A DNA stretch of 64,000 nt from Octopus vulgaris (lineage: Eukaryota): the NCBI GenBank assembly GCA_951406725.2, contig OX597822.1, positions 50,406,001 through 50,470,000 on the forward strand, given 5' to 3'. Both the position numbers and the translations under genes were made by a program. Shown here in pieces: positions 24,454 to 25,163 of this stretch. Numbering within the stretch: position 1 is the first letter of the stretch; each line of letters starts with the position of its first letter. The notes below the pieces were generated by a model, which was given only the letters and a program-made list of their open reading frames with translations, did not search any database and had not been told where the DNA came from.

Positions 24454-25163
24454 ATCACAATCAAGGAACGGCCATAATAGGCCATTCACCCACTAGAAAT
24501 AACAGCCAAAGCTTTAACCGCAAAATAACATTAATTCCGTAAACCAGGAGAAAATTAAAAAAAACATTTACCCTGTAATTTCTTATACGATGCACCGTTT
24601 CATCTACTGTTTAATGGTAAACTAACCTGATTAAATTAAATCAAGCCACCCTATATTGATTAATTATGAATTTTCTGGTTGATTCCGTAATGGAATCGGC
24701 GGCTTATATTTATTTGCTGCCGATAAATTTGGCGCGAGTGCGATGATTTGAAAATTTTAGGTCAGATATTGCCGAGGCAGGGACGGAAATGCCTCGTGAA
24801 AATATCTGTTCCGTTCTGGCTATTTCTTACTGAGGAATCTAAGGGCCTATGGAAGATTGGCTTGATTTAATTTAATCAGGTTAGTTTACCATTAAACAGT
24901 AGATGAAACGGTGCATCGTATAAGAAATTACAGGGTAAATGTTTTTTTTTTAATTTTCTCCTGGTTTACGGAATTAATGTTATTTTGCGTTTAAAGCTTT
25001 GGCTGTTATTTCTAGTGGGTGAATGGCCTATTATGGCCGTTCCTTGATTGTGATGTTGAACTTATAAATGGTCTATGACTATTTAATTTTTTCCCACTAG
25101 GCCGCTGGTGGCAAAAAAATTCTACAAAATTTTTTTGCCACCCTATATTGATTAATTATGAAT
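24454..25163 (+). mobile_element. Non-autonomous hammerhead-containing retroelement (retrozyme / Penelope pLTR-like): 492-nt monomer with 27-bp terminal direct repeat plus inverted 195-bp 5' segment, inserted in (AT)n
   Basis: GCCACCCTATATTGATTAATTATGAAT at 24645-24671 and 25137-25163; inverted arms 24454-24648 and 24858-25054; (AT)n on both sides; no ORF. Confidence 0.8.
24822..24928 (+). ncRNA. Intact type I hammerhead ribozyme with extended stem II
   Basis: ATTTCTTA-CTGAGGA-ATCTA...TAGAT-GAAA-CGGTGCATCG-TA-TAAGAAAT: 8-bp stem I, full CUGANGA/GAAA core, near-palindromic stem III, GUA cleavage after 24920. Confidence 0.88.

What the first reader, a model, noticed from the sequence alone, without database searches (positions are those of the whole stretch)
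24454..25163. Terminally redundant 492-nt structured RNA monomer with an intact hammerhead: candidate cephalopod retrozyme / circular-RNA retroelement
Seen: a non-coding unit starts and ends with the same 27 bp (24645-24671 = 25137-25163, period 492). It contains a full type I hammerhead (24822-24928, 8-bp stem I, CUGAGGA/GAAA, GUA site). It is packed with hairpins: GATTCC/GGAATC, ATCGGCGGC/GCTGCCGAT, CAGATATT..CGAGGCA/TGCCTCG..AATATCTG, GGTGGCAAAAAAATT/AATTTTTTTGCCACC and the long-range CTAGTGGG/CCCACTAG. Known: non-LTR retrozymes and Penelope pseudo-LTRs carry type I hammerheads, and retrozymes give circular RNAs. Inference: slightly more than one round of reverse transcription on a circular or tandem template by a PLE RT, inserted into (AT)n.
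Basis: partly seen in the sequence, partly recalled or inferred. Interest (0 to 1): 0.85.

Follow-up and report, generated by a model that had tools for sequence, protein, structure and literature searches.

The report
Penelope-driven hammerhead retrozyme, paired-arm insertions
This is one of roughly a thousand scattered copies of a 490-base non-coding repeat with a conserved hammerhead ribozyme motif, inserted into AT microsatellites as two back-to-back arms that always end at two different fixed sites, the footprint of Penelope-like jumping genes, which likely copy it from a predicted circular RNA.

Summary
The hammerhead, hairpins and 27-bp repeat are real, but the locus is not a lone monomer. 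It is a head-to-head insertion: a 195-bp inverted arm (24454-24648) plus a 519-bp forward arm, between (AT)n tracts. The genome holds at least 1,577 ribozyme-bearing units in dispersed arrays of up to 14. In 83 of 110 insertions examined one arm ends at unit position ~410 (A) and the other ~105 nt further (B); none pairs A-A or B-B. Two autonomous Penelope-like (PLE) families here obey the same short/long rule, and one insertion joins a retrozyme B arm to a Hydra-clade PLE short arm. The catalytic core is invariant across subfamilies while N7, the cleavage base and the palindromic loop III vary permissively. Units and both arms of one insertion differ by 0.6%, other loci by 4%, and arms read through the cleavage site, which favours a circular monomer template but does not prove it. 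The 27-bp redundancy is incidental. No PLE ORF or pLTR homology was found; the helper family, cleavage and circular RNA are untested. Verdict: new member of the non-LTR retrozymes, with unusually direct genomic evidence of PLE mobilisation.

The parts
24325..24455 (.). left (AT)n target tract
24454..24648 (-). inverted arm, unit positions 214-410; its 3' end (site A, the short end) joins the left (AT)n; carries only the 3' half of the hammerhead
24645..24648 (.). 4-bp overlap where the 5'-truncated ends of the two arms join
   Evidence: overlaps of 1-7 nt are the commonest junction class among 86 two-arm loci
24645..25163 (+). forward arm: one 492-nt unit plus 27 nt; 3' end at site B (the long end)
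24645..24671 (+). first copy of the 27-bp repeat (random 5' truncation point)
24822..24928 (+). type I hammerhead: stem I 24822-29/24921-28, CUGAGGA 24830-36, stem II 24837-41/24900-04 with a 58-nt structured loop, GAAA 24905-08, helix III 24908-11/24916-19 with palindromic loop UGCA, predicted cut after A24920
25012..25100 (+). long-range helix (25012-19 with 25093-100) enclosing site A; covaries across older related families
25054..25054 (+). internal copy of site A (unit position 410), the short 3' end used by the opposite arm
25055..25163 (+). 'tail' between sites A and B (109 nt here, 105 nt to the modal B), with the conserved CTAGGCCRCTGG motif and hairpin 25107-25142
25137..25163 (+). 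second copy of the 27-bp repeat, ending at site B
25162..25201 (.). right (AT)n target tract
47992..51005 (.). separate insertion: 5'-truncated Hydra-type PLE with the same two-arm short/long architecture; member of the candidate helper family, not part of the retrozyme

Best explanation
The locus is a two-armed, 5'-truncated insertion of a young non-coding ~490-nt hammerhead repeat (a non-LTR retrozyme) that is likely mobilised in trans by a Penelope-like element's RT-endonuclease from a predicted circular RNA monomer. Shown: dispersed tandem arrays in (AT)n; two fixed 3' ends, A and B, used one per arm; random 5' truncations joined head to head; a conserved ribozyme core; uniform sequence within each insertion. 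Inferred: arrays are transcribed, hammerheads (probably as dimers through the palindromic loop III) cut out unit-length RNAs that are ligated into circles; a PLE protein, probably a dimer, nicks both strands of (AT)n; one strand primes at A and the other at B around the conserved CTAG helix; each RT runs round the template for 0-14 units, and the two cDNA ends are joined by microhomology. Best candidate helper: the young Hydra-clade family (weak, one chimera). Odds: non-autonomous PLE-mobilised retrozyme 0.9; circular monomer as template 0.65; Hydra family as helper 0.45.
For: 212 matches at 96-100% in the 40 scored of 1,452 candidates, on many contigs. Exact junction counts: B 672, A 415, reversed controls 0; 1,577 hammerhead units, control 0. 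Opposite ends: 31 of 40 best-scoring loci A+B and 52 of 70 loci from contig C1, no A-A or B-B in either. Hydra PLE: 10 of 10 loci with both ends in view are short+long (of 30); a Neptune-like family likewise. L044 joins a retrozyme B arm directly to a 205-nt Hydra pLTR arm ending at its short site. L048 carries a 90%-identical subfamily segment inside one arm, consistent with a template jump. Core 11 bases invariant in 84-89 loci (P = 0.007 against random columns), N7 = G39/T22/C15/A8, H17 = A73/C16, 271 of 273 units intact, loop III TGCA or TATA, CATG, GATC or AATT in older families. 99.6% of cells paired over 70 pairs in 40 units. Divergence: same arm 0.65%, opposite arm 0.63%, other loci 4.0%; 318 non-consensus sites fixed across a locus; unit-specific variants shared between loci 28 vs 31.0 expected by recurrence, no linked pairs. 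5' truncations not enriched at the cut site, 5 of 172 vs 4.5 expected. Literature: PLE protein nicks and extends both strands and starts at two internal sites that define the tail (PMC11167929).
Against: No sequence link to any helper: unit vs Hydra pLTR scores below shuffles, and the tail profile misses Hydra, Neptune-like and other PLE 3' regions sampled. L039 joins a retrozyme B arm to a Neptune-like LONG arm, breaking the rule, so mixed junctions can arise otherwise and L044 is n = 1. 34 of 259 within-locus polymorphisms occur in several units, in mosaic patterns (L039, L060, L066, L068), which a single uniform circle does not explain without later conversion or template jumps. Some arrays are fully uniform (L154), so a multimer from a uniform source would look the same. 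No strand bias in unit-private mutations that would mark RT errors. Rfam does not recognise the ribozyme. In a lizard PLE the hammerhead was dispensable for insertion in vitro (PMC11167929). The tail is about three times the 30-40 bp described for PLEs.
Confidence: 0.65

Rival explanations
1. Same PLE-driven two-site insertion, but the template is an uncleaved multimeric transcript of a uniform source array; circles, if made, are a by-product.
For: Arms read through the cut site without scars; uniform arrays exist (L154, L127); mosaic multi-unit variants in long arrays; unprocessed RNA was the dominant substrate for a lizard PLE in vitro (PMC11167929).
Against: Needs repeated re-homogenisation for each 4-8% diverged subfamily; no array-internal variants pass between loci; it leaves the strict conservation of the catalytic core unexplained.
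Confidence: 0.25
2. The unit is the pLTR of an autonomous PLE not yet found, and these are truncated or tandemly repeated pLTR pieces.
For: Type I hammerhead, tail and inverted arms are PLE features (PMC8557442, PMC3846280); only a sample of PLE families was checked.
Against: The sequence after site B runs straight into the next unit, never into an ORF, in arrays of up to 14 units; 0 of 110 insertions have a tandem ORF; longest stop-free frame in a trimer is 47 aa; none of 27 related-family loci matched the Hydra ORF.
Confidence: 0.07
3. An ordinary minisatellite spread at the DNA level (unequal crossing over, rolling-circle DNA), with a chance or dead ribozyme motif.
For: Tandem arrays; some signs of conversion within long arrays.
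Against: Fixed 3' ends with ragged 5' ends, strand polarity matching the ribozyme strand, strict A/B pairing shared with PLEs, (AT)n targeting, and ribozyme-specific conservation.
Confidence: 0.03

Closest known systems
Metazoan non-LTR retrozymes (Cervera & de la Pena 2020, PMC7229834; review PMC7761336; Li, Clavereau & Pollet 2026, bioRxiv 10.64898/2026.07.22.740005)
   Same: Non-coding tandem units, low GC, type I hammerhead with short helix III and palindromic loop in each unit, highly self-paired fold, co-occurrence with PLEs.
   Different: 490 nt (above the 170-400 nt of PMC7229834, within the 51-972 bp of Li et al.); 58-nt loop II; insertion as head-to-head arm pairs with two fixed ends in (AT)n, not described in the passages read; a conserved, covarying 3' structure, where PMC7761336 says these repeats show no conserved motif pointing to a helper; circRNA not shown here.
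EN+ Penelope-like elements, their inverted pLTR and 'tail' (PMC3846280; PMC8557442; PAc in vitro, PMC11167929)
   Same: Inverted 5'-truncated copy, tail at one end only, two internal start sites, (TA)n targets, hammerhead upstream of the start sites.
   Different: No ORF; tail ~105 nt vs 30-40 bp (67 nt in the local Hydra family); here the tail is obligatory on exactly one arm rather than 'optional'; no detectable homology to any local pLTR sampled.
Non-autonomous Chlamys elements such as MRC1 (PMC8557442)
   Same: Non-autonomous PLE partners forming multicopy head-to-tail insertions.
   Different: Those resemble autonomous families at the 3' end and generally lack canonical hammerheads; this family has a conserved hammerhead and no matched autonomous 3' end.

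Membership tests
non-LTR retrozyme | type I hammerhead in each repeat unit | tested here: met
   271 of 273 units covering the motif have an intact core; Rfam models do not match
non-LTR retrozyme | tandem units of a few hundred bp, at least two consecutive with complete ribozyme | tested here: met
   arrays of up to 14 units; not at this locus itself
non-LTR retrozyme | non-coding, GC below 50%, no LTR architecture | tested here: met
   longest stop-free frame 47 aa; region ~30% GC; PBS/PPT were not searched
non-LTR retrozyme | highly self-paired RNA fold | tested here: met
   z = -4.4; 99.6% cells paired; cross-family covariation
non-LTR retrozyme | self-cleavage | not testable with these tools
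   only conservation and fold energy
non-LTR retrozyme | accumulation as linear and circular monomer RNA | not testable with these tools
   no holder on record as RNA, contigs only
non-LTR retrozyme | target-site duplication (long, when present) | tested here: inconclusive
   both flanks are (AT)n, so a TSD cannot be delimited
PLE-type insertion (works like) | inverted 5'-truncated copy at the 5' end | tested here: met
   86 two-arm junctions among 110 loci
PLE-type insertion (works like) | tail at one end only / two start sites | tested here: met
   83 of 110 A+B, 0 same-end; length ~105 nt, not 30-40
autonomous PLE or solo pLTR | RT + GIY-YIG ORF in tandem with the repeat, or homology to a pLTR | tested here: not met
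   only sampled PLE families were compared
Hydra clade (for the candidate helper, 47992-51005 family) | unit < 3 kb, RWK and DKT motifs, CxCX5C linker, CxxC/CxH, (TA)n target | tested here: met
   motifs read by eye in the 708-aa ORF of L076 against section 11 of PMC8557442; unit 2,579 bp; no phylogeny was run

The most novel reading that the evidence does not exclude
A circular ribozyme RNA parasitises a dimeric PLE enzyme through a conserved, covarying 3' RNA structure (CTAG helix plus GGCCRCTGG) that sets two obligatory start sites, one per target strand; the paired short/long ends are a general rule of PLE integration, the two arms can come from different RNA molecules, and this structure defines a whole superfamily of retrozymes that needs no sequence homology to its helper's pLTR.
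Probability: 0.35. Interest if true: 0.8.

Novelty: new member of a known kind. Interest (0 to 1): 0.55.

Why it matters
How animal retrozymes are mobilised is open: the papers read infer PLE help from co-occurrence and phylogeny and leave the mechanism unresolved. Here the insertions themselves carry the PLE footprint in large, young, countable numbers. The strict one-short/one-long rule, seen in the retrozyme and two autonomous families, turns the 'optional tail' and inverted pLTR into a testable model: an asymmetric dimer priming both strands at two sites. A 490-nt RNA with mapped start sites, a covarying recognition structure and intact candidate enzymes in the same genome is a ready substrate for in vitro tests of PLE priming and of reverse transcription around a circle.

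Tried and rejected
Rfam at gathering score (whole window) and E <= 10 (24400-25250): no hammerhead family. RNA evidence: no RNA holder listed; 14 holders only guessed to be RNA; four runs laid were contigs and cannot show ends, strand or circles. Homology to a helper: unit and tail vs Hydra pLTR not above shuffles (282 and 271 of 300 as high); tail profile recovers the retrozyme when it is left out (E = 3.5e-10) but not Hydra, Neptune-like or 12 other GIY-YIG loci; the tail motif was not found in the supplement text of PMC8557442, where long runs were cut and line breaks may hide it. A search across the L044 junction found no second chimera among 40 scored of 1,763 candidates, and its ranking did not favour chimeras. 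L039 considered as a Neptune chimera and set aside as ambiguous (long+long, 98-nt intervening piece). Linear cleaved monomer as template rejected. Strand-asymmetric RT-error signature: none. One search used a stem I shifted by one column and is superseded; within-family covariation is thin (3 pairs with two-sided changes, 73 of 500 shuffles as high). Earlier-finding look-ups by sequence, by seven words and by place returned nothing.

Full report
Observation. Every feature named is present: the 27-bp repeat at spacing 492, the type I hammerhead at 24822-24928 with predicted cut after A24920, and the hairpins. The unit folds better than all 100 shuffles (z = -4.4). Rfam gives no hammerhead match, probably because loop II is 58 nt (inference). 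The active fold lies 1.4-1.8 kcal/mol above the MFE.

Family. In G000 (2.8 Gb, 227 contigs) the unit gave 212 matches among 40 scored of 1,452 candidates, the 150 listed at 96-100% identity, mostly as tandem arrays on many contigs. Exact patterns count 1,577 ribozyme units, 672 B junctions and 415 A junctions, controls 0; about a thousand insertions is my estimate from these lower bounds. The longest array seen has 14 full units (L068). There is no coding capacity.

Architecture. I mapped 110 insertions: the window copy, 39 further best-scoring loci, and 70 loci on contig C1 anchored by exact A or B junctions (all C1 junction hits except four already in the first set). 3' ends fall at unit position 404-415 (A, 35 ends) or 19-27 of the next unit (B, 36 ends), 71 of 73 in the first set. 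There, 31 of 40 loci are A+B, 7 single-ended and 2 unresolved by the script (one in a gap, one B by eye). On C1, 37 of 48 B-anchored loci end in A on the other side and 15 of 22 A-anchored loci end in B; the other 18 have no recognised second end or run off (two A calls rest on short signatures). No locus is A-A or B-B. The inner, 5' ends are scattered, usually joined with a few bases of overlap or gap, and are not enriched at the cut site (5 of 172 vs 4.5; twelve of the 172 are unit-boundary artefacts). So the 27-bp redundancy is what any B arm slightly over one unit shows.

PLE footprint. An inverted truncated copy with a tail at one end is the known PLE signature (PMC8557442 passages; PMC3846280 passages), and a purified PLE protein nicks and extends both strands from two internal sites that delimit the tail (PMC11167929, parts 1-2 of 4). 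The window holds such an element at 47992-51005. Its family is young (78 scored of 35,943 candidates, 97-100% identity) and has the Hydra-clade motifs. All 10 of its 30 loci with both ends in view pair a short with a long end; a Neptune-like family does the same in every locus with both ends in view, seven of which look like copies of one insertion. L044 joins a retrozyme B arm directly to a Hydra pLTR arm ending at its short site, as expected if two RNAs are copied at one target. Against: L039 joins a B arm to a Neptune-like long arm, no second Hydra chimera was found, and no sampled PLE shares sequence with the unit. The helper is therefore not settled.

Ribozyme under selection. Across 84-89 loci the 11 core bases never vary, N7 takes all four bases, H17 is A or C, and loop III changes from TGCA to TATA by a double change that keeps the palindrome; 271 of 273 units are intact. 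Such palindromic loops mark dimer-acting hammerheads (PMC4209133 passages). In 40 units, 99.6% of cells of 70 predicted pairs are kept, mostly by G-U changes; two-sided changes are few.

Template. Units in one arm differ by 0.65%, opposite arms by 0.63%, other loci by 4.0%. In 63 loci with three or more segments, 318 non-consensus sites are fixed across the locus and 225 of 259 polymorphisms are single-unit. Unit-specific variants recur between loci no more than chance (28 vs 31.0) and never in linked pairs. With read-through of the cut site, this points to a monomer bottleneck at each insertion, most simply a ligated circle. It is not proof: 34 multi-unit variants form mosaics in long arrays, fully uniform arrays could supply multimers, and no RT-error strand bias was seen. 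The window copy has one complete ribozyme and would fold into a 195-bp duplex, so it is likely a dead-end product.

Wider superfamily. A tail motif pattern has 787 genomic matches against 1 control. Of the first 30, 3 were this family; most of the other 27 are short (AT)n-flanked elements, several with inverted arms, none matching the Hydra ORF. A profile built without this family recovers it at E = 3.5e-10, and related cores show other palindromic loops, some with degenerate 5' cores.

Known and new. It meets the testable features of non-LTR retrozymes (PMC7229834, parts 2-4 of 6; its supplement could not be read and may list further molluscs). That retrozymes are non-autonomous PLE derivatives is already proposed from distribution and phylogeny, with mechanism left open (bioRxiv 10.64898/2026.07.22.740005, parts 1-3 of 5; its supplements are closed; PMC7761336 passages). 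Seven searches listed no paper on a cephalopod retrozyme or on paired-arm retrozyme insertions; a recent octopus repeat annotation never uses the word ribozyme (PMC13282606 passages); PMC8490949 passages added nothing. The library lacks most subscription papers, and repeat databases were not available. Hammerhead numbering and the Neptune-like label are from my own knowledge, the latter by eye from the EN motifs.

Verdict. Observation confirmed, interpretation partly supported. New member of a known kind; interest 0.55 for the strict two-end rule, the covarying recognition structure and the testable link between retrozymes and PLE enzymes.

Noticed in passing
window 47992-51005; L070-L099: Very abundant young Hydra-type PLE (708-aa ORF from the first Met, 2,579-bp unit). 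Its pLTR hammerhead has a variant core, CCGAAGA, whereas older relatives (L136, L152) have CTGANGA; the most active family may have lost or altered cleavage.
   Followed up: partly
L190-L219, L172:523-816, flanks of L060, L104, L121: Older superfamily of (AT)n-flanked elements sharing the tail motif, the covarying CTAG helix and hammerhead-like cores with palindromic loop III; several have CTGTTGA in place of CTGANGA.
   Followed up: partly
L048 (G000:C7:218000-224000) 2214-2562: A 90%-identical subfamily segment inside an arm of the young subfamily; template jump or nesting.
   Followed up: partly
L039, L170-L189, L221-L223: Young Neptune-like PLE with short/long paired ends about 55 nt apart; upstream of some copies (L171, L175, L176) lie ~360-bp tandem repeats with a canonical hammerhead on the opposite strand, possibly another retrozyme or its pLTR.
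   Followed up: partly
L224-L226, L231, L235: Another young GIY-YIG family with a 781-aa frame and a 3' region full of repeated GATTGG and TGACGTC motifs, promoter-like; no tail homology to the retrozyme.
   Followed up: no
window 10471-10728: 118-bp tandem units resembling only the tail of the Hydra pLTR (83-85% identity), a possible minimal non-autonomous partner.
   Followed up: no
window 44199-46883 and 34518-35036: LINE-type RT ORF (RVT_1, E 1e-32) with AAT-repeat flanks and a 384-bp duplicated 3' end; a short 3' fragment of the same family at 34567-35025.
   Followed up: no
window 23805-24117: 101-bp inverted repeat at 81% just left of the finding, MITE-like.
   Followed up: no
window 53631-53720 (-): Weak hammerhead-like pattern (3-bp stem II, 7-bp stem I), probably chance.
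   Followed up: no
sequencing runs: The unit's words are held by runs labelled with four different organisms (A-D), so the family is probably shared among related species.
   Followed up: no
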